Assembly (NCBI GenBank): GCA_051294375.1 | Contig: CM119266.1 | Location: 2,099,380 to 2,163,379 of the forward strand | Reading direction: 5' to 3' | Source of the DNA: Paraspadella gotoi | Lineage: Eukaryota > Animalia > Chaetognatha | DNA: 64,000 nucleotides | Shown: piece after piece, positions 25,941 to 64,000 of the stretch | Position numbering within the stretch: the first letter of the stretch is position 1 | Layout of the letters: each line of letters opens with the position of its first letter | Position numbers and translations under genes: made by a program | The notes under the pieces: model-generated | Told to the model about the DNA's origin: nothing | Databases searched by the model: none | What the model saw: the letters and a program-made list of their open reading frames with translations, nothing else

Positions 25941-25990
25941 TGGACAGGCTATGGGAGGTTAAGGCTTCATGTCTCTTACAAAATGATAAC
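25941..25990 (+). repeat. Short dispersed repeat family (also ~36624-36672 +, ~48545-48592 +, ~56281-56331 -)
   Basis: Shared core TGGACAGGCT(A/T)TGG..G.TTAAG.C.TC.....CT.A.AA.GATAA at three independent loci plus the duplicated copy. Confidence 0.65.
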
Positions 25991-31005: not shown

Positions 31006-31181
31006 TTTTCTATGTAATCAAATTCCCCAAATTTGAAAATTGTAGTTTATGCAAATATTTGTAACATTTGATATCTAATTGGGTTAATTTCATGTTTTTT
31101 AATAAGATAGCGCGAGACAGTTTTAAAAAAGGATGAAATCGTGAATTTTTTTTGAAAAACCACGCTGTCTCTCACCAGCTT

Positions 31182-31225
<44 letters not shown>

Positions 31226-33779: not shown

Positions 33780-35170
33780 TCGAAGGTTTCAACTGCGGCT
33801 CGATCACATTGAGGCAATCGTTTTCCACCGACCAATATAGGCCGTCAAATTAGCGTAAGACTTTGACGGGCAGACGTTCGTCGTGAAGTGCCGACAAAGA
33901 CCGCAAAAAGTCCCGCCAGGCGTCGAGTGTTTGATTTCCCGAAGACTTCGTAATTTTCACGCCAGTCGTGATACTCTCGTAGCTGTGGCGGTCGCGGCGA
34001 GGCGGATCAGTTTGTCCGCCAGTTCCTTGGGGGTAGATCGTTGGGCGTCTATGTAAGAGTGAGGCGGAGACGTCGACCTCGTAATCGCCGCCGCTCTGAC
34101 AACGGGCACCGCCGTCGTGTTTGACAAGATTGTCCAGAATTTGGGAGCCATGTAGTTTCGACAGATGGGTTTCGAAGGAGAGATAGAAAAAATATCACGT
34201 GACAGCATCTCGTAGCATTCGACGATCCCACTCGGCGTCGTCCGCCGACACTTGAGCTTCGAGCACTCCCCGTAATGTCTACGTCCACGAAATGACGAAG
34301 TTCTTAACGTAGAAACGTCGTTGCGACTGACTGAGACAATGAGAAACGAACCAAGCCACCAGACGTCTTTTGTTTTTCCAGTTGTAACTCTGGTTCCACT
34401 TTTCTCCACTACTCCACGGTTCTCGCTTTGATCGATAAAATCCATGGTAGACTTCGATGTCGCTGTCCTTTCGGTAAGTCATCGTCCAGTTAAAGACGTT
34501 GTTGAAGTGGCTGGTGTTTAGGTAAGTATCGAATTGGCGACTCTTGAAAGTAGAAAATCCAGCGTTGGTGGGGAAGGCGCGTTGTGGGGATGTCGTATCG
34601 GGGGACTAAGGAGAGTTTGCTTCCCTCTGGTTGCGTCGAGGAGAAACAAATGATATGAAAAATTTATTAATTTCGTAGTGGATTAAAAATATATTTGTTG
34701 TAATATATCTCCAATAAAAACTTGTTTGTAATTTTTTTTTAAAGTTTGATTATTTTTCGATGTATTTTTGCCTTTAATTAAAAAACTGTTACAGATAAAT
34801 GAGCTTTAGTACCAAACTTTTGTATCAAACTAGTTTTGATAGATTATATTATATTATGTTATATTATTATATATTAAAATAATAATTTATTTCACTCACT
34901 TCCTTTTATCTAAGTATATCCATCGACTGTGAAACAAAATAGCATCGGCCTCTTGGTCGGACTTCGATCGTTCGAAGTCTCGCAATCTCTGATGGACACC
35001 GCGCGTCGATGAATGGTCTCGATCCCAGGCCAAACCCGTGTGTTCCAGATGGAAGTTGCGCTGCCAGAAGAGATGGAGTTTGCGGCGGCGTGAGGCGTTG
35101 CAGGTTGGCGGGAGATAAAGACTTGGAGGAAGATGAGGAAGTAGAGGAGGAAAGGAAGAGGAGGAAGAGG
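33780..35170 (-). pseudogene. Frameshifted duplicate of the GT10 fucosyltransferase
   Basis: Fragments MTYRKDSDIEVYHG, YGECSKLKCRRTTPSG and YMAPKFWTILSNTTAVPVV occur in shifting frames. Confidence 0.8.
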
Positions 35171-37453
35171 CTGAGTTATTGAAGATAAAGGGAGGAAACG
35201 GGATGAGCTTTAAAATATAATTATATAATAATTAAATTCGTTTAATAAATAAGCTATTTTGTCGCTGAGTTTGGACAATAGACACTGGACAGTAGGGTGA
35301 AGTGAAAGTTTGGAATCAAAATTACCAGTTATATCTTGAAACTATCATATTAGGAATATAATCTATAGTTTTTTTCAATATAGTTGCCCAATCACTTATT
35401 TGTATATAGTGCTACCCTTATATATGTCAAAATTTTAAATTTTTTTTTAAATTCTGAGAAAAGATTCAGATTTCTCGTTTAAAAAATATAAATTTTTTCA
35501 AATTATGTCATTAGGAGGTTAAAATATAAAAAAAATATTTTTAAGCTGGAAATTAAAATCGGTATCTGAAATAGTTTTTTACATTTTAACCAACATAATA
35601 AATGATTTTAAAAGAATTACATTCTTTAATCACCTTTTGACAGATCTTAAAATTTAAAAATTTTATTTGAAATTGATCCTATTATATATATTAGGCCTTT
35701 TCATCATCGATGCCCCTTGCCGTATGACGGAGCAGCGATATCTCTCGCTCTCTCTCTGGCTGGAGTCTGGATCGGGATCGACAAAAAGACTACGATAATT
35801 GAACGATGCATTAATTTAGGTTTCGTTAGGGAAAAGTTAGTTTAGGATAGATATTAGGCGCATTACTTAATATAATGGATCGATTAAGATTTTGAAGCTT
35901 GTTTTATAGTTTAATTACTGAGAAAAGATTTCAGGCGATTTGAGATACCTGCGTTGTTAAAAACAGAAAACTTAAAAAATATATTCATTGTAATTAAGTT
36001 AAAATTTAAGAAAAAAAAAATTTTAAAAAATTTGTATTAAATTATTCTTTAAGCTTTAGATCCATAAAAAAAATTAAAAAATTCAAAATTTAACTTAAAG
36101 TAATAAAAATATTTAAATGTTGTCCTTATTAATAAGATAATTTTTTAAATTTTTTTTTTCTATTCTCAAAGTCACTTTATCATTATTTTTGGGCTTCTAG
36201 TTTTAATCCGGATAGATATTAGGATTAAGTGGGGATTGGATTAGATTAGGGTTGAGATTGGGTTGGATTAGGTTATGATTAGGGTAGGATTAGGTTATTT
36301 TTCCTACGCTAACTTTTACAACAAAAAAATTATGGCTTTGCGGTGACTCATTGGTCAGGATCGGGATCGACAGAAACGATGACGATAATTTGAACGATGG
36401 AGGAAGCATTTTGCGACGGTGAGAGCGACGACAAAAGGGTGACGCATAAAACGACGATGGAAGCGGCAAAAGATACGATTATTGTGCGTGTGTTGAGTCC
36501 GCTGCTTCAGGAGCCGCAGCAAGGGGGCTTCTTTTGAAAAAAAGTGCCTTTATTAGTTTTTATTCTCATGATATATATGCTAAATTTTAAATTTCTAAAA
36601 TTTATTATTTCACATCACTCTACTGGACAGGCTATGGGAGGTTAAGGCTTCATGTCTCTTACAAAATGATAACATATATATAATCATATGTATATTATAT
36701 GCTATAATTTAAGTTATTTACTTTGTTTATTTAATCATAGTAATAATTTTCAAGTCATATTGAATCTAAATTCGAACAGTATTGTAGAATTGAACGTTTT
36801 TTTCATAAATATTATTGAATTTAAAAACTTATATAATTCATTTATATTTAGTTTAAGTATAAAAAATATATTTAAATTTTAGCTATGTTACTTAATAAAT
36901 GAATTTCTTAAATAAAATTATATATTCATTTCTGTTTTAAAAACTAAGAAAAAAACTATTTTCAAATGTAAATCGCGGAACCAACAGTTGATCGAAGTCC
37001 GAGGAGACGAACGCATAAACTCGATCGATGTCAATCATCGCTTACACACTTTAGCGTTGAAAATCTTCATCATTATGTCGTTAAAACGTGAGGTTCACTC
37101 TTGACATGTAACCTCGTCAAGGTTGTACATTTTTTTTTCTTCAAATTTTTCAATATCTGTGAACCGACCGATTCTATGAAAAAAGAAACTAAACAAAATA
37201 AATCAAAGTCCGACTTCAGTTTCTCGATTCTTTTTTTTGCGTGTCAAGTAAAAGTTCAATAAACAAGATGATTGTTTTTTTAAACAATCGTATATATTAA
37301 TTGGTATACGATTAGCGAAATTGATTATGAATACGTCAACGAAGGAGTAGGTTTATTACGGATAATTTAGTAGTTCTATAGTAGTTTTATTTATACAAAT
37401 AAACGCGGAGATAATAATAATTGAGGGAGATTGTGATGATTAAAACGATGTTT

Positions 37454-39930
37454 TGTGGACGCAACAAGTTTCAGAGTAAAGATAATTTATTTTCAACAAC
37501 GTTATAAACAATAACAGTCAAAATGCTCAGATCCTAAGTCTATTACAATGGTATTTACAAAGGTCAACGTTTGACCATAAAGGTCAACGTTTTGACCATA
37601 AATAAGTTGGGGAATTGAGCGAGGTAAGTTTGGTAAGGTCATGTGGTTTGACCGAGGTTGCGTGTTCTTGATGTTCGTCCACACATCCCCCCACAAGCCT
37701 TTGACCGGTGGGGAGAAGGCTTGAAGTATTGAATTGCGTCGTCGTTTTCATCGTTTATCGTCTCTTCCGGGTGGCTGAAGCATCGTCGGAAGGATGTTGA
37801 TAAGACCAGGTATTGATCAGATTGTCGACGAGCGATTGCGGCGTCTGGAAAACGCGAGTGGCGCCGCTTCCGTTCCGGAGGGGTGCCGGTGCGGGGCTGC
37901 AGTGGTACGACGCGGGCGACCACGTGGTCGCGCCTGCTCAGATTGGGGGGTGCGGATTCGTCGGTGACGGCGGTTTCAGTCGATCGACGGAAATATCTTT
38001 GACGGCGCGGGCCCGGTATTTTNNNNNNNNNNNNNNNNNNNNNNNNNATTTTGAAAGTTTTTGGGCCACGTTCGAGGACGTTGTAAGAGCCGTCGAATGT
38101 CCATCGCGTCGGATGTAGACGCGGTTGACGTCGGCGAGCGTTTCCGGGACATGAGAAGGCTGCGCCGCGTGCCAAGCGGCGGGCAGAGGCTGCATGAGAG
38201 CGACATCTGCGCGGAAATCGTCAAGGATTCGCGAGCGAGCGGCGGCGTCGACGTCAGTTGTCGGGACCGGAAGTAGCTCGCCAGGGAGCGTCAGCGTCTC
38301 GCTCAGCATTAATTTGGCGGGAGAGGCGTCCGAGTCTTCTCGTGGTGTTGCGCGGAGACTCAAGAGAGTCCAAGGGAGTTGCGCCAACCAGTTATTTCTA
38401 GCGGCGTCGCAGCGGGCCCGTAGGGCCGCTTTCAGCGTTCGATGAAGGCACTCAACCATCCCGTTGGATTGGGGGTGGTAGGCTGTCGTCGTAGAAGGGT
38501 CAAAGCCGACTACCGCTGCCACTTGGCGCCACAATTCGGACGTTAATTGGGTGCCACGATCAGTGGTGACGACGGACGGGACGCAAAAACGCGAAACCCA
38601 GTTTTGTAGGAAGGCGGCGGCAACGGAGGCGGCGGAGATGTCGCGAAGCGGTGCTGCTTCCGGCAGCGCGTGAAGCGGTCAATCATCGTCAGAAGATGAG
38701 TATGACCAGAGACGGCTGGCAGCGGCCCCACTAGATCGATATGAACGTGAGCAAAACGTTTGGCTGGTGGTTCAAATTTCTGGAGCGGCGCGCGGACATG
38801 GCGCTGCGTCTTGGCGCGCTGACAAGTGTCGCATGACCCTGCCCATCGTGCGATGTTGGATGAGGCTGATGGCCATACGAAGCGCGTCGTCACGAGCTTT
38901 TTGGATGCGCGAACTCCCGGGTGGGCGATGCCATGGGTGGCGTCGAAAACGCGCCGGCGCCATGACGCTGGAACAAGTGGGCGTGCTCGGGAGCCTGAGA
39001 TGTTGCAGATGAGTGTCGTGTTGCTGATTGGAACGTTTTTGAGATGGAGCGCCGTATGAGAGTCGTTGAGGAGCGGCTGGACATCGTCGTCGGTGGCTTG
39101 ATCAGCCGCCATTGCCTCAAAGTTGACTTGGAGGGCGCCGACGGCGTTGACGGTGGTGGCGATGTCCTCACGCTCTTTTTGCGCATTCAAGATCGCTTCA
39201 GGTCGATCTGTAGGGATTGTCGCTGGTGGCGGCGCTGACGGAGGAGTTGGCGGGCGGGAAAGGGCATCGGCAACGACGTTCGCCTTTCCGGCGATATGAC
39301 GGATGTCGCCGGTATATTCGGCGATGCCCGCCAGTTGATAGGTTTGCCTCATGGTGTGAGGCTCGGCCTTCTTCCGCAGCGCCGCCACGAGCGAGATGTG
39401 GTTGCTAAAAAGTGTGAAACGGCGTCCTTCGACGTATGGGCGGAAATGGCGAATTGAGGCGTAGGCGGCGAGAAGCTCCTTGTCGAAGGGCGGCCATTTT
39501 CGTTGATTGGGTTTCAGTGGCTTTGAATGGAAACCCAGGGGCTGCCATTGGCCATCGACAAGCTGTTCGAGGACGACGCCGACGGCGACGTCAGAGGCGT
39601 CGACAGTAAGAGCAAGGGGAGCGCCGTCGATAGGGTGGACCAGAAATATAGAGTCGGCAAGGGCGTCCTTGATTGCCTGGAAAGCGGCGTCTTGCGGGGC
39701 CGCCCATTTTAGCACGCGGTTTTCCGTGGAGAACTTCAAGAAGGGGGTCGAGATGATGTGCGGCATGGGGCACGAATCGGCGGTAGTAGAAAACCCCGAG
39801 AAAGCGTTGAAGTTCTTTTACAGTAGTGGGCGTGGCCATCTCGCGTAGCGCCTCTACCTTTGACGGAAGTGGGCGGACGCCATCATTGTTGACGTTGTAG
39901 CCGAGAAACTCCAGGCTGGAGGCGCCAAAA
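37454..39930 (-). mobile_element. Ty3/Gypsy LTR retrotransposon, 3' part (RT C-terminus, RNase H, integrase, PPT, 3' LTR); frameshifted, 5' part lost at the N-gap
   Basis: Domain order RT-RH-IN: LEFLGY...PTTVKELQRFLG..YYRRFVP; LTVDASDVAVG, FDKELLAAY, GKANVVADALSR; H-x3-HPG...CxxC, HVHIDLVGPLP, TTAYHPQSNGMVE. PPT GGGGGGATG precedes a 230-bp LTR (37454-37683) that has 8-bp inverted ends TGTGGACG/CGTCCACA and an internal AATAAA. Confidence 0.95.
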
Positions 39931-41442
39931 NNNNNNNNNNNNNNNNNNNNNNNNNNNNNNNNNNNNNNNNNNNNNNNNNNNNNNNNNNNNNNNNNNNNNN
40001 NNNNNNNNNNNNNNNNNNNNNNNNNNNNNNCCCTAAGCAAACCCCATCAGGACCGATCGAAAGCCCCTTACCTTGACCCCTCGACCTCTTGACCTTACCT
40101 TATCCAAATCGCGAGATCGGATTCCGGAATTCGACTCTCGACGTCGGAAGATCCTTACCTCTCTTCGTCGGGAGTCACTTACTCAGATCCGGCTCGAGGG
40201 TAAGGAGGGTAAGCGTGCGAGAATTGGGGGTGGGAGTCTCGATTCGTTACGAGGATGGAGGGAGCGGTGAGTGGGCCGTGACCATAAATGACCCTCTTAA
40301 TTAGTTCAGGGAATGAGGCTAAAGTAGACTCCCCTCCAAAAAGTCGTCGTCGTCGTTGTTGGTTCTTATCGTCGTCGTCATCTCGTTCGTTCTTCATCTT
40401 CAGTCAGTTAACACATTGTAAAAAAAAAAGACTCAGACAGTTTGAAAGTGGAAGGGAAAGGAGAGGTGTGTGGGGAGGCTGTGGGGAGGTTGTGGGGAGG
40501 TTGGAGGGGAGGTGGACGGTCTGGAGCGTGGGAAAGAAACGGGGGAAGAAAGAAGAAAGAATTCTGGTAGGATGGTTCTTGGTCAAGTTATGTTAATTTA
40601 GAGCATTTTATGTCCTTTATATACTACAATACAGAACGGGGAATTTAAAAGTTTCAAAACCGATCGTCTGTTAATTTTTTTTCTTTTTTCTTTCACTTTC
40701 TTACAGTTTCTATCCTAACTTTCTCTCTTTCTCCTCTCTCTCAGTCGCTATTNNNNNNNNNNNNNNNNNNNNNNNNNNNNNNNNNNNNNNNNNNNNNNNN
40801 NNNNNNNNNNNNNNNNNNNNNNNNNNNNNNNNNNNNNNNNNNNNNNNNNNNNNNNNNNNNNNNNNNNNNNNNNNNNNNNNNNNNNNNNNNNNNNNNNNNN
40901 NNNNNNNNNNNNNNNNNNNNNNNNNNNNNNNNNNNNNNNNNNNNNTCTCTCTCCCTTTTCCTTCTCCCCCTCTTTTTTCACTTTCACACTAGAGGCGTCA
41001 CTTTCAATTTCGATTTGGTCTCAGAAAAAAAGTGTCCAACTTTTAAGTGGGAAAAAAAATAGTGGAAAAAAAGAGGAAAGAAAAACCTCGAAAAAAAATC
41101 ATCGCTCCTCTTTTTTTTTGTCTCTTGTAGACGAATGTTCAAAGTTTTAAGGGGTGAAAAACTTCATTAAAACTCTTAAGGGGTGAAAAACTTCATTAAA
41201 AACGTTTGAGGGGTGAAAAAACTTCGTTAAATTCGTTTTTCGGGGACGGGCTAAAGATTTTTTTAAAACCTTTTTAAGAGGTTTTGGAATCTATCGTATT
41301 CTGTTCATTTGTGTTTCTATAATTTAAAGTCTTTTCAATTGATACCCTTTAGATTTTTGAAGAACCAGGTATCAACTAGGTGTGAAGAAAAGGTTATGTC
41401 TGAGTCTCTTTTGCCCTCCAATATCATTTAAGGAAAAACTCA

Positions 41443-48927: not shown

Positions 48928-50358
48928 AGACGCAATGCACGAAGCAGTGGTCGGATCGCGCCCCCATTACCGTGAAGCGTAGGCGCCTACAATAATCGAT
49001 CGGCCATTCGCTCCGCTCGCCCGTCAAAGAAAACGCCCAAGTCCATCAAAAGCGTTGTCGATGTGTGTAGACATTCGGTCGATTGTTTCGCATAACCAAT
49101 CCGGAAAAATCCGGTAGAAAAAGTTGAGTATCGTAATGAACGCGGAAAAGGTCTATGGATCGGGTGTGCCGACAGTTATAAGATTTTCTCGCGAGTGACC
49201 AGATTCTCCAGAATCCCCCCAACCTGAGTTCTAAACCAAATCCAGGGCGTCCACATCTCATAGCCAATCGTTTCGACGGCCGAGGGATTCCAGAATTTGC
49301 GAGAGTCCAGAAAATAAATTTCTGATCTCCAAAGGATCCGGAAAGTTCGACTCCTTCCAAGCGAATCTCGTGAGCGTTTTGACCTGAGCGAAATTGACGG
49401 CCGCCTGCAAAGTTGCGCGAAGGTTGCAGCGGTTGCGATCGCATCGACGTCGCACTTTGTTTAGTTCACTCGCGCTGAGTTGAAGAGGGATCATGCGAAG
49501 TCTTCCCGGCGGCTGAGATGGCCTCTCTGGTCGAGGAGTGAAGTTGAAGAAAGAGCAAGCTGGGGGCCAAAGGCATGACGTTAAAGGTTTTCATCCACTT
49601 GCGAGGGAGGTAGAGCATGGCTTGTGTCAATGAAGGTAGTTTCCTAAGTCTTCGGCAACAATCTCTTTGTAGAAAGTCGGCAACGTCTGTGCGAGTGCAG
49701 ATTGCATGTCGTCAACTGGCTGGTGGATCAGTTCCTTGACAAGTTGATCACCGAACCCATGAGGGACTTACTGTCGATAATTCGTGATGAATGAAGGTGC
49801 CGATAATAACACTTTGTGTTTCTTATTGTGAACGGAGCCTTGGAGCTTCTTCACCCTCCACAGCGGGCCTACGCGGGAGTCTATAGGCTCGCAAATGTCT
49901 TTTTCTAGAACGCCCAACCAGTTGTCCGTGTCTAGGGCCTCGAAATTAAAGACGAAAACTCTTCCATCTCCACGAAATATAAAAGATCGTCGCATTTCGG
50001 AAATCCATTCTCATCTTGCTCTCCGTCTAAGGCGCGATTCGAAGCTCAGCATCGGATTGGCAGCCGCCACCCTCCACAACGCCCTCTCAGCGCACTCTCC
50101 TTCAACGGCGCCACGCCCTCGAAAAAAGAAGGCGATCGAGAGAAGGTAATGTCCGCGGAGTTGGCCGTGCTCCAAGAGGGCGTGTAGTATTCCAGAGGCG
50201 GCCGAGTCGCCCGTCAAGAATACGACGCACGCGGCGAACTTTGTCCTCGTATTTACGCCGACGATGGAAATAGTCGAAGAGGAAATAAGATGAGACGATG
50301 ACGACGAGGAAAACCCGACAATCGAAACAGTGACCCCAATAAACTCTTTACTCCCATT
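48928..50358 (-). pseudogene. 3'-truncated, frameshifted inverted copy of the 54434-55987 gene
   Basis: Fragments NFEALDTDNWLGVLEKDICEPIDSRVGPLWRVKKLQGS and MIPLQLSASELNKVRRRCDRNRCNLRATLQ occur in shifting frames. The last ~43 codons are absent. Confidence 0.8.
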
Positions 50359-50957
50359 TAATTAGCAAAATGTTAAAAAAAAAAAAGTATTAAAAAAAAT
50401 TTCATAAAAGGTTACGTTTCAAGTTATATGAGCTTGTTGCTAAGACTTTTTTTTCCTCTGAGTTATAAAAGCTTTTTTTGTATTCTTGAATATAGTATTC
50501 TCTTTGGGTTAACAATTTTTTTGGAAATTCAATAGTAAATTTTTTATAATGAGCAAAAAAGAAGGATCCTAACTTATTACTTTTTACTCTGAGTTATAAT
50601 ATTTCTTGTAACGGATAATGCAAGATGATTCAACAAATCATAATTTTCCTAATACCTCGCGCGAAGTCAGGAATTTGTAAATTTCATTTGTTACCGGCGA
50701 CGCGTCGCCTTGTTATCTTAACAATCGCTATCAAACAACAACAACGACAACAATCCTATCGGGAAATTCGCTTCTTCTTGAGTCCTTGAAAAGGAGGAGG
50801 AGGAGGAGGAGGAGGAGAAGGAAGAGGAAGAGGATAAACATAAAGGTAAAAGGGAGAAAAAGCGATATAGAAAAAAGAATTTGCTTCATCAGGTTGTAAA
50901 AGCGGAAGACCGACTTGGGTGTCAAGAGCGAGAGAGAGGCAGAGAGAGAGAGAGAAG

Positions 50958-51005
<48 letters not shown>

Positions 51006-51251
51006 CAGAGAGAGAGAGAGAGATGGAGACGTTTCGATAAAGGAGAGGAGCCGGGGTCAAGATACTTGCGATGAGACGAGTAAGAGATGATGAGGAGGGG
51101 AAGAGGAGGGAGGAGGAGGGAGGTGAAGGAAGGAGGAGGAAGAGGAGGAGGAAAATGGTTTCAAAGACGACGGTGGTACGGTACGTGTGTGGGCGTGCGC
51201 AATGTGAGTGGACAGTGTGCGCACTTCGCCGGACGATGTGAACGGTGGCCC

Positions 51252-51329
<78 letters not shown>

Positions 51330-51556
51330 CTCTCTGTCAAAAGTGGACCTCCTTGAAAAACGTAGCTGGATAACATCGATTTCAATCAAAAGGCTTTGGT
51401 AGAGAGGCGCTACTTCTTCCCGATGTCACTTTGTTTGTACATCAGTTATTGCGTTTTCGTCGTCGTCGTCGTCGTCGTCATCTTCGTCCCGGTCGTGGAG
51501 AGATAAGGGAAATCAAGGACCAAACGGAAACGGAGTCGTTTTTCGAGTCGGTGTCA

Positions 51557-51591
<35 letters not shown>

Positions 51592-53230
51592 TTTTTATCG
51601 TATTCTCCGTACTTCATCTTCTTATCACTTTTCCCTCTCGAAGTCGTAATCGTTGACTTTCTTATCACATTACATTGACTCTCATTATCGTCTTCGCTTT
51701 CGTTTACAAAGTCTTGAGTCATTTTCCTTTTCAATTACGTATGATTAAGATGTTATTTAGAAGCATAATTACAAAATGTCGTTACATTTTTGTTACATCA
51801 TTACATTTTCGCGATAAAAAAAAAATGGGCACCCACACCTCGACCCTCGCATCGACCCACACGATTGCGATGCATCTGGCTGATCTTTCGTCCCTGTGGG
51901 GACAAATCCCATTTGTCCCCTCTCCGATTGTCCTCTCGTCCCGATTGTCCTAATATCCGATTGTCCGATTGTGCGCACGTTTTTAATTGTTCACCAGTCA
52001 GAATTAACTCTTTTTCAGAATTCTGCTAAATTTTTTCCAAAAAAATTAAGACCAAATCGATTGGAAGACAACAAACTTACAGAGACAAAAAAATAAATGT
52101 TTAAAAATTGACTTTAATTTACATTTAGTCAATTATTTTTTTTCATGTGGGACGAAAAAGCTAGTACTACTTTTTAATAAGTGAATTCGCCATCTTCGTC
52201 AGGTTCCGTCGAGGATCTTCGAGGAGTTTGCCTCTTTAGTTTTCGTCTGGAAGAGAGTTACGTGATGGAGACAGAGTCAGCGGATGGAGAGAGAGAGTCA
52301 CGTGATTGAGAGAAACTATCTTTGATGGAGAGGGAGAGAGAGGTCAAGTGACGGAGCAAGAGAGAGACGTATGAGAGTAGAATAGAGAGAGAGAGAGAGA
52401 GAGAGAGAGANNNNNNNNNNNNNNNNNNNNNNNNNCTCTCCATCACGTCTCTCTCTTGCTCCGTCACTTGACTCTCTCTCTCCCTCTCCATCAAGATAGT
52501 TTCTCTCAATCACGTGACTCTCTCTCTCCATCCGCTGACTCTGTCTCCATCACGTAACTCTCTCTCAGACGAAAACTAAAGAGGCAAACTCCTCGAAGAT
52601 CCTCCGACGGAACCTGACCGAAGATGGCGAATTCACTTATTAAAAAGTAGTACTAGCTTTTTCGTCCCACATGAAAAAAAATAATTGACTAAATGTAAAT
52701 TAAAGTCAATTTTTAAACATTTATTTTTTTTGTCTCTGTAAGTTGTGTTGTCTCTCAATCGATTTGGTCTTAAATTTTTTTGGAAAAAAATTTAGCAGAA
52801 TTCTGAAAAAGAGTTAATTCTGACTGGTGAACAATTAAAAACGTGCGCACAATCGGACAGTCGGATATTAGGACAATCGGACGAGAGGACAATCGGACGA
52901 GGGGACAAATGGGATTGTCCCCACAGGGACGAAAGATCAGCCAGATGCATCGCAATCGTGTGGGTCGATGCGAGGGTCGAGGTGTGGGTGGCCAATTTTT
53001 TTTTTATCGCGAAATGTAATGATGTAACAAAAATGTAACGACATTTTTGTAATTATGCTTCTAAATAACATCTTAATCATACGTAATTGAAAAAGGAAAA
53101 TGACTCAAGACTTTGTAAACGAAAGCGAAGACGATAATGAGAGTCAATGTAATGTGATAAGAAAGTCAACGATTACGACTTCGAGAGGGAAAAGTGATAA
53201 GAAGATGAAGTACGGAGAATACGATAAAAA

Positions 53231-53265
<35 letters not shown>

Positions 53266-53484
53266 TGACACCGACTCGAAAAAACGACTCCGTTTCCGTT
53301 TTGTCCTTGATTTCCCTTATCTCTCCACGACCGGGACGAAGATGACGACGACGACGACGACGACGAAACGCAATAAACTGATGTACAAACAAAGTGACAT
53401 CGGGAAGAAGTAGCGCCTCTCTACCAAAGCCTTTTGATTGAAACGATGTTATCCCAGCTACGTTTTTCAAGGAGGTCCACTTTT

Positions 53485-53558
<74 letters not shown>

Positions 53559-53788
53559 GCGGGCCACCGTTCACATCGTCCGCGCGAAGTGCGCCACACT
53601 GTCCACTCACATTGCGCACGCACACACACGTACACGTAACCGTCGTCTTTGAAACCATTTTCCTCCTCCTCTTCCTCCTCTTCCTCCTCCTTCCTTCACC
53701 TCCTCCTCCTCCTCCTCTTCCCTCCTCACATCCTCTTACTCGTCTCATCGCAAGTATCTTGACCCCGGCTCTCTCCTTTATCGAAACG

Positions 53789-53872
<84 letters not shown>

Positions 53873-55856
53873 CTCTCCTGACACCCAAGTCGGTCTTTCC
53901 GCTTTTACAACCTGATGAAGCAAATTCTTTTTCTATATCGCTTTTTCTCCCTTTTACCCTTATCCTCTTCCTCTTCCTTCTCCTCCTCCTCCTCCTCCTC
54001 CTCCTTGTCAAGGACTCAAGAAAGAAGCGAATTTCCCGATAGGATTGTTGTCGTTGTTGTTGTTTTGATAGCGATTGTTAAGATAACAAGGCGACGCGTC
54101 GCCGGTAACAAATGAATTTACAATTCCTGACTTCGCGCGAGGTATTAGGAAATTATGATTTGTTGAATCATCTTGCATTATCCGTTACAAGAAATATTAT
54201 AACTCGAGTAAAAAGTAATAAGTTAGGATTCCTTCTTTTTGCTCATTATAAAAAATTTACTATTGAATTTCCAAAAAATATGTTAACCCAAAGAGAATAC
54301 TATATTCAAGAATACAAAAAAAGCTTTTATAACTCAGAGGAAAAAAAAGTCTTAGCAACAAGCTCATATACTTGAAACGTAACCTTTTATGAATTTTTTT
54401 TAATCTTTTTTTTTTTAACATTTTGCTAATTAAATGGGAGTAAAGAGTTTATTGGGGTCACTGTTTCGATTGTCGGGTTTCCTCGTCGTCATCGTCTCAT
54501 CTTATTTCCTCTTCGACTATTTCCATCGTCGGCGTAAATACGAGGACAAAGTTCGCCGCGTGCGTCGTATTCTTGACGGGCGACTCGGCCGGCCTCTGGA
54601 ATACTACGACGCCCTCTTGGAGCACGGCCAACTCCGCGGACATTACCTTCTCTCGATCGCCTTCTTTTTCGAGGGCGTGGCGCCGTTGAAGGAGAGTGCG
54701 CTGACGAGGGCGTTGTGGAGGGTGGCGGCTGCCAATCCGATGCTGAGGCTTCGAATCGACGCCTTAGACGGAGAGCAAGATGAGAATGGATTTCCGAAAT
54801 GCGACGATCTTTTATATTTCGTGGAGATGGAAGAGTTTCGTCTTAATTTCGAGGCCCTAGACACGGACAACTGGTTGGGCGTTCTAGAAAAAGACATTTG
54901 CGAGCCTATAGACTCCCGCGTAGGCCCGCTGTGGAGGGTGAAGAAGCTCCAAGGCTCCGTCACCAATAAGAAACACAAAAGTGTTATTATCGGCACCTTT
55001 CATCACGGAATTATCGACAGTAAGTCCCTCATGGTGTTCGGTGATCAACTTGTCAAGGAACTGATCCACCAGCCAGTTGACGACATGCAATCTGCACTCG
55101 CACAGACGTTGCCGACTTTCTACAAAGAGATTGTTGCCGAAGACTTTAGAAAACTACCTTCATTGACACAAGCCATGCTCTACCTCCTCGGCAAGTGGAT
55201 GAAAACCTTTAACGTCATGCCTTTGGCCCCAGCTTGCTCTTTCTTCAACTTCACTCCTCGGCCAGAGAGGCCATCTCAGCCGCCGGGAAGACTTCGCATG
55301 ATCCCTCTTCAACTCAGCGCGAGTGAACTAAACAAAGTGCGACGTCGATGCGATCGCAACCGCTGCAACCTTCGCGCAACTTTGCAGGCGGCCGTCAATT
55401 TCGCTCAGGTCAAAACGCTCAACGAGATTCGCTTGGAAGGAGTCGAACTTCCGGATCCTTTGGAGATCAGAAATTATTTTCTGGACTCTCGCAAATTCTG
55501 GAATCCCTCGGCCGTCGAAACGATTGGCTATGAGATGTGGACGCCCTGGATTTGGTTTAGAACTCAGGTTGGGGGGATTCTGGAGATCTGGTCACTCGCG
55601 AGAAAATCTTATAACTGTCGGCACACCCGATCCATAGACCTTTTCCGCGTTCATACGATACTCAACTTTTTCTACCGGATTTTTCCGGATTGGTTAATGC
55701 GAAACAATCGACCGAATGTCTACCACATCGACAACGCTTTGATGGACTTGGGCGTTTTCTTTGACGGGCGAGCGGAGCGATGGCCGATCGATATTGTAGG
55801 CGCCTACGCTTCACGTAATGGGGCGCGATCCGACCACTGCTTCGTGCATTGCGTCT
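48928..55856. repeat. ~3.45 kb-arm inverted duplication centred on the N-gap at 52411-52435
   Basis: 48928-52410 is the reverse complement of 52436-55856, with scattered 1-bp indels. Confidence 0.93.
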
Positions 55857-55987
55857 TCTCTATCCGCGGCCGGCTCTTCTGGACGATCTCCTTCGACGAG
55901 TGCGTGTTCTCGGCCGAGCTGGGGGCAGCCTTTGCGGAGAACGTGGAGGCGATGTTGCGGAAAATTGTTAAGGGGAGGAGTGGTTGA
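54434..55987 (+). CDS. Intronless 517-aa condensation-domain / CoA-dependent acyltransferase-fold protein (alcohol acetyltransferase/PapA5-like) with an N-terminal membrane anchor
   Basis: Long ATG-initiated, non-repetitive ORF. Hydrophobic LSGFLVVIVSSYFLF; ALWRVAAANPMLRLRI (cf. AL..L..RHP.LR..I); GPLWRV; active-site-like FHHGIIDS (HHxxxDG); C-terminal SIRGRLFWTISFD...FAENV. AATAAA at ~56261. Confidence 0.85.
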   Translation: MGVKSLLGSLFRLSGFLVVIVSSYFLFDYFHRRRKYEDKVRRVRRILDGRLGRPLEYYDALLEHGQLRGHYLLSIAFFFEGVAPLKESALTRALWRVAAANPMLRLRIDALDGEQDENGFPKCDDLLYFVEMEEFRLNFEALDTDNWLGVLEKDICEPIDSRVGPLWRVKKLQGSVTNKKHKSVIIGTFHHGIIDSKSLMVFGDQLVKELIHQPVDDMQSALAQTLPTFYKEIVAEDFRKLPSLTQAMLYLLGKWMKTFNVMPLAPACSFFNFTPRPERPSQPPGRLRMIPLQLSASELNKVRRRCDRNRCNLRATLQAAVNFAQVKTLNEIRLEGVELPDPLEIRNYFLDSRKFWNPSAVETIGYEMWTPWIWFRTQVGGILEIWSLARKSYNCRHTRSIDLFRVHTILNFFYRIFPDWLMRNNRPNVYHIDNALMDLGVFFDGRAERWPIDIVGAYASRNGARSDHCFVHCVFSIRGRLFWTISFDECVFSAELGAAFAENVEAMLRKIVKGRSG

Positions 55988-58707: not shown

Positions 58708-58747
58708 CCACTGATGACGACTTAACCAACAAAGTCGAAATATCTGG
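58708..58747 (+). ncRNA. Minimal type I hammerhead ribozyme candidate
   Basis: CCA-CTGATGA-C-GACTT-AACCAACA-AAGTC-GAAA-TATC-TGG: intact core, 5-bp helix II, helix I CCA/TGG, AUC cleavage triplet and palindromic ATAT mini-helix III. Confidence 0.7.
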
Positions 58748-59133
58748 AAAAAAAAATTTCTTTGGTCCTGTTACACCGTTTCTCCATCATGAAAATATAT
58801 TCGTATAATTAATACAGTACTTATTTTTATATCTTTCTCTGTCTTTTTCTCTCTCTCTTTCTCTTTGTATCTGTTACTTACTTAAAAAAAAATTGGCCTT
58901 GCTTTTGCTAATATAGACCCGTACTGCTTTTCTTTTTTTTACTTTCTTGTATTAATCAGCGACAATGGATTATGATTGGCTAATTAAAACCCTAATTATT
59001 TGTCGCTCCAAACTCTCTCTCAAAATTTATTTTCGAATCGGGGCTGAGAAAATATTGGATTAAATCCTGATTGAATAGCGTTTATTGGTCTAATAAGGTC
59101 GTTTGACTGAATGACAGAAAAAAAAAGTGAGAA

Positions 59134-59168
<35 letters not shown>

Positions 59169-59289
59169 AAGAGAGAGAGAGAAAGCTATATATATATTAG
59201 AGCGTAGTGAAAGTCACGTATGAAAATTCTAATTGTCAATTTATAAAAAAAAATAATAATATATTTTTTAATTTTCGCATTAGGCTATA

Positions 59290-59620
59290 TTTATAAATAG
59301 TACTATCCTTAAAAAATCCTAAAATTTCAAATGGACTTTTCTTAATTTTGATGTCCGATTTGAATTCCTCGTCAAAATTTTATTAAAAATTAAAAAAACT
59401 ATATTTAATATACAAACATTTAATTTTCAGATTAAAATATATGTTTTTCTAATTTTTTTCCCAACTTAATGTAAGAATTTTTAAAGAGTTATATTTCTTT
59501 TTATAAACCTTTTATGACGAATCCAAATCTGCAAAAAAAAATCTGATAAAAAACCATTTTGAAATTTTAACATTAATATGGTTAGTACCATAAATAAATA
59601 TAGCCTACTGCGTAAATTGC
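59290..59620. mobile_element. Palindromic MITE related to 18918-19283
   Basis: TAGGCTATATTTAT...AAAATTTCAAATGG is inverted against CCATTTTGAAATTTT...ATAAATATAGCCTA. Confidence 0.7.
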
Positions 59621-59709
59621 AAAAATTATAATAGATTTTTTTAGACATTGTAATTTTTCTCTCTTTTCGTTGCGAGTTTGAATTGAAGGAAATATTGTGC
59701 TTGTGCTTA

Positions 59710-61314
59710 TGCTTATTAAGCACAAAGAAGGCGGCTCATTGGAATTTTCTGTGTATCGCAAAGCAACTCATACTGAACAATACATTCCCTTTGATTCGCA
59801 TGCTCCCTTGTCGCACAAACTCGCCACGATCAGATTCCTTACCAGAAGAGCCCTACTGATTCCGTCGACCCCCGAGCTCCAGGCCGCCGAGCTTGAGCAT
59901 GTCAAAAGAGCCCTGGCGCTCAATGGTTACCCTCTGTAAGCTTTCGAGAAAGCCAGGTTCCGGCAGAACCTGGCTGAGGACAGTGGCCACCAAGGGGCTG
60001 CCCAAGTAGCTGCTGACGCAAGTTCAACCTCCACAAGAAGAACGAGGCCTTGCACCCACCACAGCGCAACTGGGAGATAAGCAGAAGCGTCTCAAGACCG
60101 TAGGTCACCTGTCCCTGCCCTACCACCAGGGGATCACTGAAGCTCTGGTGCGGGCGCTAGTAAAGCAGGGGATCTCCAATTCAGTGACGACCCGCGGTTC
60201 TCTACTTGAGCAACTGGTGAAACCGAAAGACAAAATCCCAAGACCGAAAACATCAGGAGCCGTCTATTGAGCGGCCTGTGCAGGGAAGGGCAACCAACCC
60301 TGTGCAGCAGCATACGTAGGCAAGACCGGGAAGTCTCTCTCAGATCGGTTCAAACAGTACATAAAGCCGTATCGTGACAAACGTGGTCACTTCCTATCAG
60401 CTATTGCCAAGCATTTGGCATATTCTGGCCATCTGTTTAGAGAGTCCGACTGCCTTGCGCTGTCCCATGACCAAAATTGGTTTTCAAGAGATATTAGAGA
60501 GGCAATCTATATCAAAGCCCTCGAGCCCTCTCTGAACCGTGATGGAGGACGATTCGACCTCCCTCCAAGTAATGATTCGCTAATCAAAATGGTGGTGGAA
60601 CACCCAGTGCCACCCCAAACGAACAGTGATTCCCCTGTCCAAACTCAACGGGTCAGGCGGAGGCCTCCCGGCAGGCAATGGACGTCCGATGCCTCTCCCG
60701 AGACTGTAGCAACCTGGCGCGACTCTTCTCGCGCTGAGCGCTGCCCAAAATGACGGATACAGGAAGAGGGAGAGGAGTCTGTATCTCCTGCACCAAAACA
60801 GGCCAGATCAGGCAACCACCCACCTCACCGTCAGGTGAGAGGAGGGCCTTCGGCAGGCTTAGCAGGCCAGAGAGATTTTCGAGATGCACTTGGTATTTTC
60901 CCAGGCGAGTCTTTACCTGACCCTAAGATTTCCCACTCTACAACATTATCTTCACAATCTATGTCAAGCCAATGTCCCGATCACATCGTCAGCGTCAGCG
61001 TCCCGGGGGGGGCGGCAGCTCATTTTGAGCTCTTTCTTCTCTTTAATTTCACTAAACTCTTGCCTTATCTATCCCTCACCACTCATCACTCTATTTCATT
61101 TTTCACTTATTACTCATTAACTTATTTAACTTTGTTACCTCAAAATTTCAGTTTAATTCTAAGTTTTTCTAAATTTTATCTTTGTTGTACATTTCATTTC
61201 ACATTTCACCATTTCAAACTAACTTCTACTTCTTCCTTGTCCTTACCTTCACCTGTCCTCTCATCTGACCACTATCCTTTACTCAGCTCTTTGTTGGTAA
61301 CTCTCCCTCAATTT

Positions 61315-61405
<91 letters not shown>

Positions 61406-61530
61406 ACTCGATGTATAGAGAAATCTTTGTTCAAGATACCAAATGCTGATGAAGGCTCGAATTAAAGAGCCGAAACATGTACTGTTTTAATAAAAATAAA
61501 AATCGTTGTCTCTGCAATTAAAAATATTTC
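59710..61530 (+). mobile_element. Penelope-like retroelement, 5'-truncated and decayed (RT thumb, GIY-YIG endonuclease, 3' pseudo-LTR region)
   Basis: FSVYRKATHTEQYIPFDSHAPLSHK...LNGYP; LPYHQGITEAL; KPKDKIP...SGAVY*AAC...C.AAYVGKTG; SAIAKHL..SGH; REAIYI...EPSLNRDGG. Stops at ~59937 and ~60268 plus a frameshift. Confidence 0.93.
61441..61487 (+). ncRNA. Minimal hammerhead ribozyme in the Penelope 3' region
   Basis: CTGATGA-A-GGCTC-GAATTAAA-GAGCC-GAAA-CATGTA: perfect 5-bp helix II, palindromic ACATGT helix III and GUA cleavage triplet (cut after 61481). Helix I is imperfect. AATAAA follows. Confidence 0.85.
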
Positions 61531-61847: not shown

Positions 61848-62763
61848 GGAAGTTAATTCCTGAAATTTTTGACTTTATCTTTATTTTCAGTATTTTTTAA
61901 TTAAATCAAATAAGGGTGGCCACGGAAAATATTGAATAATGTGAATATTTATTTAAAAGACAGTCATTTTCAGTCAACTCCGACAAGACTTCACCGGGAA
62001 AAATGAAAGTGAAATTTTATTTATTATAATTATTTATACGAATAATATTATTTATAAATGGTTTCGTTTGTATTCTTCTCTATGATTTTTTTTTAATGAA
62101 ACCGATTTTTTACGTTATCGTTAGGTGTAATTTTTAAGGCGATTTCAATGATCGCTAACCAGGATCAATACATTATAATGAATTTATAAAACTATAAAAA
62201 ATGTTATAATAACTGATAGTTATTTTGTTTCGACTGAAGTCAGATAATCAATAAATCATTTAATTGATAGTAATAAAGTAATAATCGATTAATTGAGCAC
62301 TTTATTGACAATTTAATAATTAATCAATTATTCAATAAATCAACTTATTAATCATTACATTAACCTTGTCATCGTTTCAATTTTTATGGAAACAAATAAT
62401 CTTAATTATCTAAATTATTATTATTAGCCCCAAAAGTTAGAAATATACAGACATCGTATAAAAATATAGTAAGTCGCCTCAAATTTTATTAAATATTGAA
62501 TGAATTATACAATTTATAAAAGTTTATTATATGTAATTGGGAATTTAAACAAGCAAGCTACTTAATTTTTTTATCTTATGCATAAATCTCTATAAATGTT
62601 TTAATTCCTATTTTTGCTAGGAAAAAGATGTATTCAAGCACTAGTTTAAATGCTATTGTCTTATTTTTATTAGTATAAATGCTATATAAACTATATATTT
62701 ATAAAATATACATGCTAAAAAACATAATATTATGGTGGACTAAAATCTACCAACCGTTCATCA

Positions 62764-62836
62764 GCGGCCATTGGTGCCGGAGGCAAGTCATTCGCCTCCC
62801 AACCCAAAGGTCCAGGGTTCTAGCCCGGTGGCCGCC
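62764..62836 (+). other. tRNA-derived (Gly-like) Pol III head, SINE-type or tRNA pseudogene
   Basis: Acceptor-like stem GCGGCCA/TGGCCGC, A-box-like TGGTGCCGGAGG, B-box-like GGTTCTAGCCC and loop CTCCCAA. The anticodon stem is imperfect, so this is not a functional tRNA. Confidence 0.75.
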
Positions 62837-62837
62837 T

Positions 62838-62913
62838 AGCAGTTAAGAGGGACGGGGCGCTTAACCCGCCTGTAATATAGTGTTACAGCCTGATCCGAAG
62901 CTCAGGGACTGCT
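62838..62913 (+). ncRNA. Twister ribozyme candidate, type-P5 permutation
   Basis: P5 AGCAGTT/GACTGCT; AA; P2 GAGG with CC-C; G62851, A62852; T1 CGG(62853-55) with CCG(62895-97); cleavage-site TAA 62862-64; T2 GC(62868-69) with GC(62900-01); P3 CTGTAATA/TGTTACAG; P4 CCTGA/TCAGG; L4 TCCGAAGC. Confidence 0.72.
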
Positions 62914-64000
62914 TATATTGAACGGTTCTGTCATTAACATATATCAATAATCATTCTCTTCAATATTTAATTATTTCTTACATTACAATAATAAAACTCT
63001 TTAAAATTACGCGAATAAAGAGCGTCAACGTTATCTGACAAATTTGATCTTAAGCTAATTTGTATAATTTAGCAGCCAGATGAAAATCGACCGGGATCTC
63101 TGATCTTGAGAATTTCAAATCGAATATAACGTGCTCACTATCGCGTTTTCAATTTAAATTTTTTATCTGAAAGCTGAGATTAAACTGGTTCTAGAAATGT
63201 TACCGGTTTTACTCCGAATTTGTCCAATCTCAAATTATTAGGATCTAAAAACATTTTAAAGAATCTGTCTTTATAAGTAGAACTACATTTTTGTATCTTT
63301 ATTTTTAAGAAATAATCCGTTTTAAAGTACTAATTTATTAATATTTTTTTTAAAAAAATTATCTAATTTTTATTTATAATTCAATAACAAAAAATCGTAA
63401 AAACTTGGGAGAGGTCACAAATTAAAGCTTATGTTTTGTAGATAATGTATAAACATTCAAATTGTAAGCACGCACACAAAAATAATAAATAAATATTATT
63501 TCAATTTGTTTTTAAGATTTAACAATTCATAGCTGCTGAACAAAATTAAAAAACTTACCTATTTATGCTTATAGAAAGCCCAAAGTTTACTCTAGAGTAT
63601 TTAGTCTTTTTTATAAATTATTTTACATTATTTTCAAAGTTATAAAGGGAAAAACAAAAAATGTCACTTAAAAATGCCGAGAATTCGGTTTTCTAAACAT
63701 CAATAATTGGAAAATTATTTTTAGGATTTTTAAAAATAAAGTATGTAAAATGAAGTATTTTTCCGCTCTTTGAGTTGACGCAGGTTAAATTTGATTCCGA
63801 CCGATATTTTTTAAGATATCTATCATTTTTAATGAAAAAAACCGTTTTTTGCAAATTTTGAAGAGTTTCAAGCACTTATTAATCGATTTTTCAAAAAACA
63901 AAGATGGAAAAAAATTAGTAACATATAGGGGACTAATTTGTACTATAGTGCTAAATTCTGTAAAAAAGTTTGAAAAATTTGCTAAGGCCTAATACATATG

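What the first reader, a model, noticed from the sequence alone, without database searches (positions are those of the whole stretch)
62752..62927. tRNA-like Pol III head fused to a permuted twister ribozyme, enclosed by an inverted repeat: candidate twister retrozyme/SINE
Seen: a tRNA-like unit (62764-62836, with A/B boxes and a 7-bp acceptor stem) is followed within 1-2 nt by a sequence that maps element for element onto the twister consensus in P5-permuted order. The order is P5(5') AGCAGUU, AA, P2' GAGG, G-A, CGG, tiny P1 region GGCGCU, U^AA, P2 CCC, GC, P3 hairpin, P4 CCUGA, loop UCCGAAGC, UCAGG, P5(3') GACUGCU. The T1 pseudoknot is CCG/CGG rather than the usual CCY/RGG, and P4 closes with A-U rather than G-C. 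Both changes are compensatory, which argues against chance. AACCGTTCA (62752-60) and TGAACGGTT (62919-27) bracket the unit. Established: twister cuts at U^A using the G of the GA motif, leaving a 2',3'-cyclic phosphate and a 5'-OH; P1 is dispensable in the env22 mini-twister; schistosome SMalpha repeats pair a tRNA-like promoter with a hammerhead. Inference: this is a Pol III-transcribed, self-cleaving non-autonomous retroelement that uses twister instead of hammerhead, possibly mobilised by elements like the Penelope 1.2 kb upstream. I know no description of this architecture but cannot check that here. Caveat: P2 seems to lack one base (CCUC expected), so this copy may be impaired.
Basis: partly seen in the sequence, partly recalled or inferred. 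Interest (0 to 1): 0.88.

Follow-up and report, generated by a model that had tools for sequence, protein, structure and literature searches.

The report
Twister ribozyme inside tRNA-headed jumping repeat
This 232-base stretch is one copy of a repeat scattered over many places in an animal genome that joins a decayed tRNA-like unit to a sequence with the core of the self-cutting twister RNA; it likely came from, and likely moves with, Penelope-like jumping genes, and it is predicted (untested) to cut only when two copies pair.

Summary
Sequencing contigs show an interspersed repeat family with sharp ends and at least about 150 different flanks, and no head-to-tail junction among the rows shown. 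The twister core is real: it is the only descriptor hit in the window (0 of 100 window shuffles) and the top hit of a model built from phage twisters, though Rfam misses it. The "missing P2 base" is not damage: the family shares it, and 3-bp P2 helices and the CCG/CGG pseudoknot occur in Rfam-positive phage twisters. What is unusual is the lack of a P1 hairpin, replaced by a six-base palindrome. That feature, the odd P2 and the tail motif recur in published Naiad Penelope-like retroelement tails. Best reading: a non-autonomous element carrying a tRNA-type promoter and a Penelope-derived twister that is silent as a monomer and cuts as a dimer. Transcription, cleavage and the mobilising partner are inferred, not shown. 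The neighbouring Penelope carries a hammerhead and is not a Naiad. I found no paper on this architecture. New variant of a known kind; interest 0.68.

The parts
62731..62962 (+). Whole repeat unit (232 bp here; this copy lacks two bases of the family tail near 62953-54)
   Evidence: Depth and loose ends of laid contigs in runs X1, X2, X4, X7: left edge 62727-62731, right edge after the tail motif
62733..62752 (+). 5' leader hairpin (7 bp, 6-nt loop), upstream of the tRNA-like unit
   Evidence: MFE fold; inside the family boundary
62752..62760 (+). Outer stem, 5' arm
62764..62836 (+). Decayed tRNA-like unit with 7-bp acceptor stem, poor A box (62772-83) and near-consensus B box (62816-26); putative Pol III promoter
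   Evidence: ARAGORN at 85% threshold: tRNA-Gly(CCC) pseudogene; no Rfam hit; box consensus recalled
62838..62844 (+). P5, 5' strand
   Evidence: common A62838G change keeps the pair as G-U
62847..62855 (+). P2 3' strand (62847-50), GA with putative general base G62851, T1 3' strand CGG
   Evidence: Matches order of Rfam Twister-P5 consensus shown; descriptor hit
62856..62861 (+). Six-base palindrome in place of the P1 hairpin; predicted intermolecular P1
   Evidence: Self-duplex -8.3 kcal/mol; palindromes at the same place in three Naiad consensus tails
62862..62869 (+). UAA (predicted cut between 62862 and 62863), 3-nt P2 5' strand, GC of pseudoknot T2
   Evidence: no insertion in family
62870..62888 (+). 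P3 hairpin, 8 bp
   Evidence: family majority 62876C turns a U-G into C-G
62889..62906 (+). P4 (5 bp, A-U closing) and loop U-CCG-AA-GC giving T1 and T2
62907..62927 (+). P5 3' strand (62907-13) and outer stem 3' arm (62919-27)
62928..62962 (+). 35-base unpaired tail ending in the family motif TGTCTCTTC(A); resembles Penelope-like 3' tails
   Evidence: Loose ends; alignment with 61483-61517; Craig 2021 supplement
62727..62730 (.). Possible target-site duplication (ATAT, repeated at 62963-66; 5- and 6-base readings also fit)
   Evidence: weak in AT-rich DNA
59682..61517 (+). Neighbouring broken, 5'-truncated Penelope-type element with C-terminal GIY-YIG, minimal hammerhead (61446-61482) and 36-base tail; separate insertion, used for comparison
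   Evidence: GIY-YIG E 0.0046, below Pfam cut-off

Best explanation
The stretch is one copy of a 232-bp interspersed, non-coding repeat family that joins a decayed tRNA-like unit to a P5-permuted twister core with a palindrome in place of P1; it is likely a non-autonomous retroelement, likely transcribed from the tRNA-type promoter and likely copied by the reverse transcriptase of a Penelope-like element, and its ribozyme is predicted to be silent in a single RNA and to cut only when two copies pair. Steps. Shown: multi-copy dispersed family with fixed ends; complete twister core; palindrome. Inferred: (1) origin, a tRNA-derived promoter unit placed inside the long P5 stem of a Naiad-type ribozyme tail, which would explain why 33 bases lie upstream of the tRNA unit and why an outer stem closes round both domains; (2) transcription by Pol III running into a flanking T run; (3) recognition of the ribozyme fold and tail by a Penelope-like RT; (4) weak monomer cleavage, so full-length RNA survives to be copied, while two RNAs (or a tandem source locus) swap strands, form a 6-bp P1 from the two palindromes and cut at U62862/A62863. 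My odds for the single steps: twister-derived fold 0.9, cleavage in some form 0.55, Pol III transcription 0.6, Penelope-like partner 0.55.
For: Family: 14,757 contigs laid in X1, 7,306 in X2, 949 in X7, 389 in X4 (three studies of one organism; P1 may be the window's own source); depth rises at 62725-39 and falls after 62950; left-flank loose ends agree only 0.40-0.53, in 46+101 contigs (X1) and 28+45+70 (X2). Twister. Three of its departures are natural: 3-bp P2 in 63 of 103 distinct phage P5 twisters, CCG/CGG T1 in 12 distinct sequences from 195 loci, P3 present; 7 of 7 such examples pass Rfam Twister-P5 gathering. Naiad link, read by eye in the Craig 2021 supplement: three consensus tails hold a P5-order twister core with palindromes after T1' (Naiad-1_Movir, and the records just before Naiad_Mphi and Naiad_Scon); the latter two have the same odd P2 (3-nt strand facing G-N-N-N, third pair mismatched), a form seen in 0 of 103 phage twisters, plus P3 and a long P5 with an outer stem. 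Tail: GTCTCTTC lies within about the last 200 nt of 4 of 11 distinct places in that supplement (P about 0.002, post hoc and not corrected for pyrimidine-rich tails); the 36 bases after the neighbouring Penelope hammerhead align to the element's tail with a score reached by 13 of 126,119 same-length stretches, two of them that tail itself. Precedent: Penelope hammerheads with a palindromic helix III show no cleavage as single motifs and some as dimers (PMC4209133 passages); Naiads are reported to lack canonical hammerheads (PMC8557442).
Against: No Rfam hit; custom model E 0.54 only. No P1 hairpin, third P2 pair is C-A or a bulge, and an A-U pair closing loop 4 had no convincing precedent (1 weak case in 94 loci). 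The nested twister fold (-16.3) is less stable than the MFE (-27.1), which pairs the palindrome region with CCC; pseudoknots are not scored. No two-sided compensatory change within the family; 13 of 27 variant rows in X2 are CpG transitions, and G62897A, which breaks T1, reaches 14% of summed depth in X1, 6% in X2, 4% in X7. No autonomous Naiad was seen in this organism (no genome held). Penelope-like insertions are often 5'-truncated or partial tandems, whereas this family has a fixed left end. That end lies about 41 bases before the A box, longer than I recall for Pol III starts. Only 3 of 54 Naiad consensi were seen with the fold, from motif searches and 1 of about 20 sequence parts read; the two coral tails in that part did not show it.
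Confidence: 0.5

Rival explanations
1. An ordinary LINE-mobilised tRNA SINE whose body is a dead twister relic kept only as a structured or neutral sequence.
For: Copies are full-length monomers, so cleavage cannot be efficient. SINE bodies often derive from RTE 5' UTRs, and Kojima notes a working ribozyme behind a head would truncate the SINE (PMC5786205 passages). P3 starts and ends like the Schistosoma Perere-3 twisters listed in PMC8501958 Table 1. No covariation in the family.
Against: RTE twisters are P1-type; here the order is permuted. All 12 core nucleotides are intact, with no variant at 1% in X2 (weak, the family is young). No poly(A) or microsatellite tail in the loose ends; the left end is 33 bases upstream of the head.
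Confidence: 0.2
2. Solo LTR of a Helenus-type TRIM (tRNA promoter inside the LTR) that also carries a twister in each LTR, so that a two-LTR transcript is cut twice, as in plant LTR retrozymes.
For: Helenus LTRs hold a tRNA-like unit about 40 bases from the left end, give 4-bp TSDs in animals and leave many solo LTRs (PMC10886601). This explains the leader, the fixed ends, the possible ATAT duplication and a dimer-dependent ribozyme. TG at 62733 and CA at 62961-62 exist.
Against: The Helenus LTR records seen run TGT...ACA; the family edge includes TA before TG and the ends are not inverted beyond two bases. No primer-binding site or purine tract in the loose-end rows shown (441 and 238 rows not shown). 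The twister loop strings searched are absent from Helenus LTRs. Does not explain the Naiad-like features.
Confidence: 0.15
3. One reading: a monomer-active twister retrozyme that cuts each transcript and circularises.
For: Complete core; inefficient cleavage without P1 is reported (PMC8501958); a G-U pair with a 4-nt loop could close the 6-nt linker; Pol III plus hammerhead precedent in schistosome repeats (PMC6765202).
Against: One ribozyme per transcript cannot give a unit circle; no head-to-tail joint and no class of copies starting at 62863 among the rows shown (27 and 22 joints not shown).
Confidence: 0.08
4. A non-autonomous rolling-circle DNA element (Helentron/Helitron2 type) that captured the tRNA-like and twister parts.
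For: Subterminal inverted repeat, a hairpin at one end, T-rich target, fixed ends.
Against: HINEs have 12-15 bp subTIRs 2-4 nt from the 5' end and the palindrome near the 3' end (PMC4067079); here the repeat is 9 bp, 21 and 35 bases from the ends, in neither orientation fitting.
Confidence: 0.07

Closest known systems
Type-P5 twister ribozyme (Rfam RF02684, clan CL00120)
   Same: Order P2'-GA-T1'-(P1)-UAA-P2-GC-(P3)-P4 with loop U-NNN-AA-GC; 3-bp P2, P3 and CCG/CGG T1 each occur in Rfam-positive phage members.
   Different: No P1 hairpin (palindrome instead), third P2 pair mismatched or bulged, A-U closing loop 4, closed P5 helix; no Rfam hit; sits in an animal repeat.
3' tails of Naiad Penelope-like elements (Craig et al. 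2021, PMC8557442; ribozyme fold not described there: 'twister' 0 occurrences)
   Same: P5-order twister core, palindrome after T1', same odd P2 in two mussel-type records, long P5 with outer stem, TCTCTTC tail motif.
   Different: Naiads encode EN-RT and carry two palindromes between T1' and the cut site; this element is 232 bp, non-coding, has one palindrome and an internal tRNA-like unit.
Schistosome SM-alpha hammerhead repeats (as reviewed in PMC6765202, passage)
   Same: Small non-coding repeat with apparent Pol III promoter and a self-cleaving motif.
   Different: Hammerhead, tandem arrays; here twister-type, dispersed monomers.
Animal non-LTR retrozymes (PMC7229834; bioRxiv 10.64898/2026.07.22.740005)
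   Same: Non-autonomous, ribozyme-bearing, proposed Penelope-dependent.
   Different: Defined by tandem units each with a type I hammerhead; neither text mentions a twister-bearing or tRNA-headed member in the parts and term searches seen.
Twister T-variants of Perere-3 RTE (PMC8501958)
   Same: Twister with weak P1 in an animal retroelement; similar P3 ends.
   Different: P1-type, at the 5' end of an autonomous LINE, cut site defines the element's end; here the cut site is internal.
Helenus TRIMs (PMC10886601)
   Same: tRNA-like unit set some 30-40 bases inside a short repeat with fixed ends.
   Different: Helenus LTRs end TGT...ACA, have PBS/PPT and no reported ribozyme.

Membership tests
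Twister ribozyme | Conserved core: UAA at cut site, GA, GC/GC, loop U and AA | tested here: met
   compared with Rfam consensus
Twister ribozyme | Pseudoknots T1 and T2 complementary | tested here: met
   CCG/CGG and GC/GC; the T1 form occurs in Rfam-positive phage twisters
Twister ribozyme | Helices P2 and P4 | tested here: inconclusive
   P4 5 bp met, A-U closing pair without good precedent; P2 two pairs plus C-A mismatch or bulge, 0 of 103 phage examples but 2 Naiad records
Twister ribozyme | P1 helix of at least 2 bp next to the cut site (PMC8501958) | tested here: not met
   6-nt palindromic linker; can pair only between two RNAs (-8.3 kcal/mol) or as one G-U pair
Twister ribozyme | Score against Rfam twister models | tested here: not met
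   custom model 11.1 bits, E 0.54
Twister ribozyme | Covariation among homologues | tested here: inconclusive
   Only per-position variants available; 5 of 6 common stem changes keep the pair through G-U, none two-sided
Twister ribozyme | Self-cleavage at U^A | not testable with these tools
   Needs in vitro assay
tRNA-derived SINE | Short, non-coding, interspersed, many copies | tested here: met
tRNA-derived SINE | tRNA-related head with A and B boxes | tested here: inconclusive
   Pseudogene call only at relaxed threshold, 1 of 10 hits in window; B box near consensus, A box poor (consensus recalled)
tRNA-derived SINE | Element begins at the head | tested here: not met
   Left end 33 bases upstream of the tRNA-like unit
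tRNA-derived SINE | 3' tail shared with a partner LINE; Pol III transcript | not testable with these tools
   No genome held; no run on record as RNA
Non-LTR retrozyme | Tandem units, each with a type I hammerhead | tested here: not met
   No hammerhead in the unit; no head-to-tail joint among rows shown
Non-autonomous Penelope-like element | 3' end similar to an autonomous Penelope-like element of the same genome | tested here: inconclusive
   Tail aligns with the neighbouring Penelope tail; twister-bearing partner not seen
Non-autonomous Penelope-like element | Partial tandems (pLTR) and frequent 5' truncation | tested here: not met
   Fixed left end and unrelated flanks in the rows shown; rare forms could be hidden
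Helenus TRIM | LTR ends TGT...ACA, PBS and PPT between two LTRs, 4-bp TSD | tested here: inconclusive
   Ends do not match; internal region not seen but most loose ends not shown; ATAT duplication possible
Helentron/HINE | 12-15 bp subTIRs 2-4 nt from 5' end, 3' palindrome | tested here: not met

The most novel reading that the evidence does not exclude
This is the first SINE-like parasite of Naiad/Penelope-like retroelements with a working twister, and it belongs to an undescribed twister subclass (palindromic P1, bulged 3-bp P2) that cuts only as a domain-swapped dimer: the twister counterpart of the dimer-dependent hammerheads of other Penelope-like elements, filling the gap left by 'ribozyme-free' Naiads, here in a 230-nt RNA small enough to dissect Penelope RT template recognition.
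Probability: 0.3. Interest if true: 0.85.

Novelty: new variant of a known kind. Interest (0 to 1): 0.68.

Why it matters
Twister has one proposed eukaryotic role (5' processing of Perere-3). A high-copy tRNA-headed element with an internal, permuted twister would be a new setting, and a natural dimer-dependent twister has no description that I could find. How Penelope-like RTs choose and prime their RNA is an open question; a 232-base non-autonomous passenger sharing the ribozyme domain and tail would give a minimal substrate. It also shows that Rfam models miss this class, so such ribozymes may be common in invertebrate genomes.

Tried and rejected
Rfam on the whole window, 2 kb, the twister part and the head: no relevant hit. 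No second copy in the window. Family-specific pattern in metagenome contigs (5 matches), prokaryote genomes (3) and viral contigs (0): none is the element or has proper helices. Expression: no RNA holder listed; X7 is only guessed to be RNA and also covers flanks, so it says nothing on expression or cleavage. X12 and X13 (other organisms) laid nothing, which is no proof of absence; X10 and X11 each laid one contig. Contig depth was not used as copy number. Exact element motifs in the Naiad and Helenus supplements: no match to this family. The two other TGTCTCTTCAA hits in the window (16725, 27377) lie behind a sodium-channel exon, not a ribozyme, which shows the short motif also arises by chance. 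'P2 lacks a base' rejected. Neighbouring Penelope as source of the twister rejected (hammerhead type). Earlier-finding look-ups by sequence, place and full word set found nothing on this family. Lunse et al. 2017 on dimeric Penelope hammerheads was not held; I saw only its title.
Full report
What is there. The window is animal DNA, AT- and microsatellite-rich, with mobile-element remnants. A general descriptor for a P5-order twister hits once in the window, here, in 0 of 100 window shuffles and 0 of 20,000 shuffles of the element (written after seeing the sequence). A covariance model from 14 phage twisters ranks 62847-62908 first of 7 listed matches, at 11.1 bits and E 0.54 against 6.8 bits for the next: right place, weak score. 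Rfam finds neither twister nor tRNA. The head is a decayed tRNA: ARAGORN calls tRNA-Gly(CCC) at exactly 62764-62836 only at 85% threshold, where the window gives 10 hits.

It is a dispersed repeat family. No genome is held, so I laid contigs of public runs (8 of 13 listed runs laid). In organism A, 14,757 (X1), 7,306 (X2), 949 (X7) and 389 (X4) contigs lie on the stretch, from three studies, one of which may be the window's own source. Depth rises at 62725-39 and falls after 62950. Loose ends on the left begin at 62727-31 with agreement 0.40-0.53 (46+101 contigs in X1, 28+45+70 in X2), so the flanks differ; on the right they read TACTGTCTCTTC(A) and then diverge. The unit is therefore 62731-62962, with a 7-bp leader hairpin and a 35-base tail outside the inverted repeat, and has at least about 150 different junctions. 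No head-to-tail joint and no class of copies starting at the predicted cut site appears in the rows shown (27+22 joints and 441+238 loose ends were not shown). X12 and X13 laid nothing; X10 and X11 one contig each. No run is on record as RNA, so nothing is said about expression.

Departures from the twister consensus. (1) P2: no copy shows an insertion at P2 (3% threshold, 1%), so the 3-nt strand is the family form. None has this element's form, with a C-A mismatch or bulged A at the third pair. (2) T1 CCG/CGG occurs in 12 distinct phage sequences from 195 loci. Seven of 7 examples with 3-bp P2, P3 or this T1 pass the Rfam gathering score. (3) An A-U pair closing loop 4 had one weak case in 94 loci (3-nt P2 only). 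(4) P1 is not a hairpin: the 6-nt linker is self-complementary (duplex -8.3 kcal/mol). Within the family, 13 of 27 variant rows in X2 are CpG transitions by my count; 5 of 6 common stem changes keep the pair through G-U (6 of 7 with the T-arm change, P about 0.10), none is two-sided, and G62897A breaks T1 in 14%, 6% and 4% of summed depth in X1, X2 and X7. The family gives no covariation evidence.

Where the twister comes from. Earlier unchecked notes of this scan described twister-like folds lacking P1 in Naiad tails. I checked this by eye in the supplement of Craig et al. 2021 (PMC8557442; parts 1, 2 and 11 of 59 read, plus motif searches). Three of 54 Naiad consensi were seen with the fold: Naiad-1_Movir and the records just before Naiad_Mphi and Naiad_Scon (Naiad_Bpla and Naiad_Mphi if the file follows the metadata order). 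Each has P2', GA, T1', palindromes, AA, P2, T2, P4 with a U-NNN-AA-GY loop and a long P5. The last two have the same odd P2 as this element, a P3 hairpin and an outer stem beyond P5. I did not read most Naiad tails, and two coral tails in part 11 did not show the fold. The paper reports no canonical hammerhead in Naiads and does not mention twister. The tail motif GTCTCTTC lies in about the last 200 nt of 4 of its 11 distinct places in the file (P about 0.002, post hoc, composition not corrected). The neighbouring element at 59682-61517 is a broken Penelope of the C-terminal GIY-YIG type with a minimal hammerhead; the 36 bases after its predicted cut site align with the element's tail at a score reached by 13 of 126,119 stretches. 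So the twister domain resembles Naiads and the tail resembles Penelope-like tails in general; no partner was seen in this organism.

How it most likely works. Inferred: a tRNA-derived promoter unit came to lie inside the long P5 stem of a Naiad-type ribozyme tail, giving a 232-base unit that Pol III can transcribe (no T4 run inside; first at 63146) and a Penelope-like RT can copy. A ribozyme cutting in the middle of a monomer would destroy the template, yet copies are full length. The palindrome resolves this: as with Penelope hammerheads, which have a palindromic helix III, do not cut as single motifs and cut weakly as dimers (PMC4209133 passages), a single RNA would be nearly silent, and two RNAs would swap halves, form a 6-bp P1 and cut at U62862/A62863. 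Unexplained: the fixed left end about 41 bases before the A box, and the lack of visible tandems or truncations that Penelope-like insertions usually show. These keep the rivals alive: a LINE-mobilised SINE with a dead relic (0.2), a solo LTR of a Helenus-like TRIM with a twister (0.15; PMC10886601, parts 2-3 of 6, passages and supplement search), a monomer-active retrozyme (0.08), a Helentron-type element (0.07; PMC4067079 and PMC7492417 passages).

Membership and novelty. It works like a twister by anatomy but fails two tested features (P1 hairpin, Rfam score), so I call it twister-like. It is not a retrozyme as defined (tandem hammerhead units; bioRxiv 10.64898/2026.07.22.740005, parts 1-2 of 5 and term search; PMC7229834 passages) and not a standard SINE (the head is internal). 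Nearest precedents: schistosome Pol III hammerhead repeats (PMC6765202 passage; original paper not read) and Perere-3 twisters (PMC8501958 passages). Searches for this architecture: twister ribozyme + SINE + retrotransposon (5 papers), twister + retrozyme + tRNA (9), twister + type-P5 + eukaryot (2), ribozyme/SINE/Penelope (20 of 38 listed), Naiad + twister (0), twister + Penelope + ribozyme (17), SINE/Pol III/hammerhead (20 of 34 listed), twister + palindrome + dimer (1). No listed title or abstract opening describes it; most of those papers I saw only as listings. The library lacks most subscription journals, Repbase and Dfam were not searchable, and preprint supplements were not seen, so the family may be catalogued under a SINE name. 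Roth 2014 and the mini-twister work were not read. Verdict: new variant of a known kind; interest 0.68, 0.85 if dimer-dependent cleavage and Penelope dependence are shown.

Noticed in passing
window 61446-61517 (+) and 58711-58750 (+): Two minimal type I hammerhead motifs with palindromic helix III, one behind and one about 1 kb before the broken Penelope ORF; they differ in sequence, so probably two different elements.
   Followed up: partly
PMC8557442 File S5 (Naiad-1_Movir; records before Naiad_Mphi and Naiad_Scon): Published Naiad consensus tails hold an unreported P5-permuted twister fold with two palindromes in place of P1; two use AC/GU for pseudoknot T2.
   Followed up: partly
window 62980-63054: A second, separate repeat just downstream of the element shows raised contig depth in X1 and X7.
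   Followed up: no
window 16531-27170 and 27184-37833: Tandem duplication of about 10.6 kb at 95-96% identity, the second copy with frameshifts (fucosyltransferase-like ORF, sodium-channel exon); may be a real duplication or an assembly artefact.
   Followed up: no
window 48928-52370 and 52445-55856: Inverted duplication of 3.4 kb at 96% identity with a short spacer.
   Followed up: no
window 54434-55987 (+): Uninterrupted 517-aa ORF with weak alcohol acetyltransferase / condensation-domain matches (E 1.7e-4, 2.9e-3), unusual for an animal.
   Followed up: no
window 37938-40046 (-): Gypsy-type LTR retrotransposon remnant (RT-RNase H, integrase zinc finger).
   Followed up: no
window 12591-13555, 18957-19261, 29589-29892, 59247-59642: Related long inverted-repeat (MITE-like) elements, 68-76% self-complementary.
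   Followed up: no
L052, L092, L140, L205, L206, L209 (phage contigs): Several P5 twisters in a row, a few hundred bases apart, on single phage contigs; more than half of the sampled phage P5 twisters have a 3-bp P2, shorter than the 4-bp Rfam consensus.
   Followed up: partly
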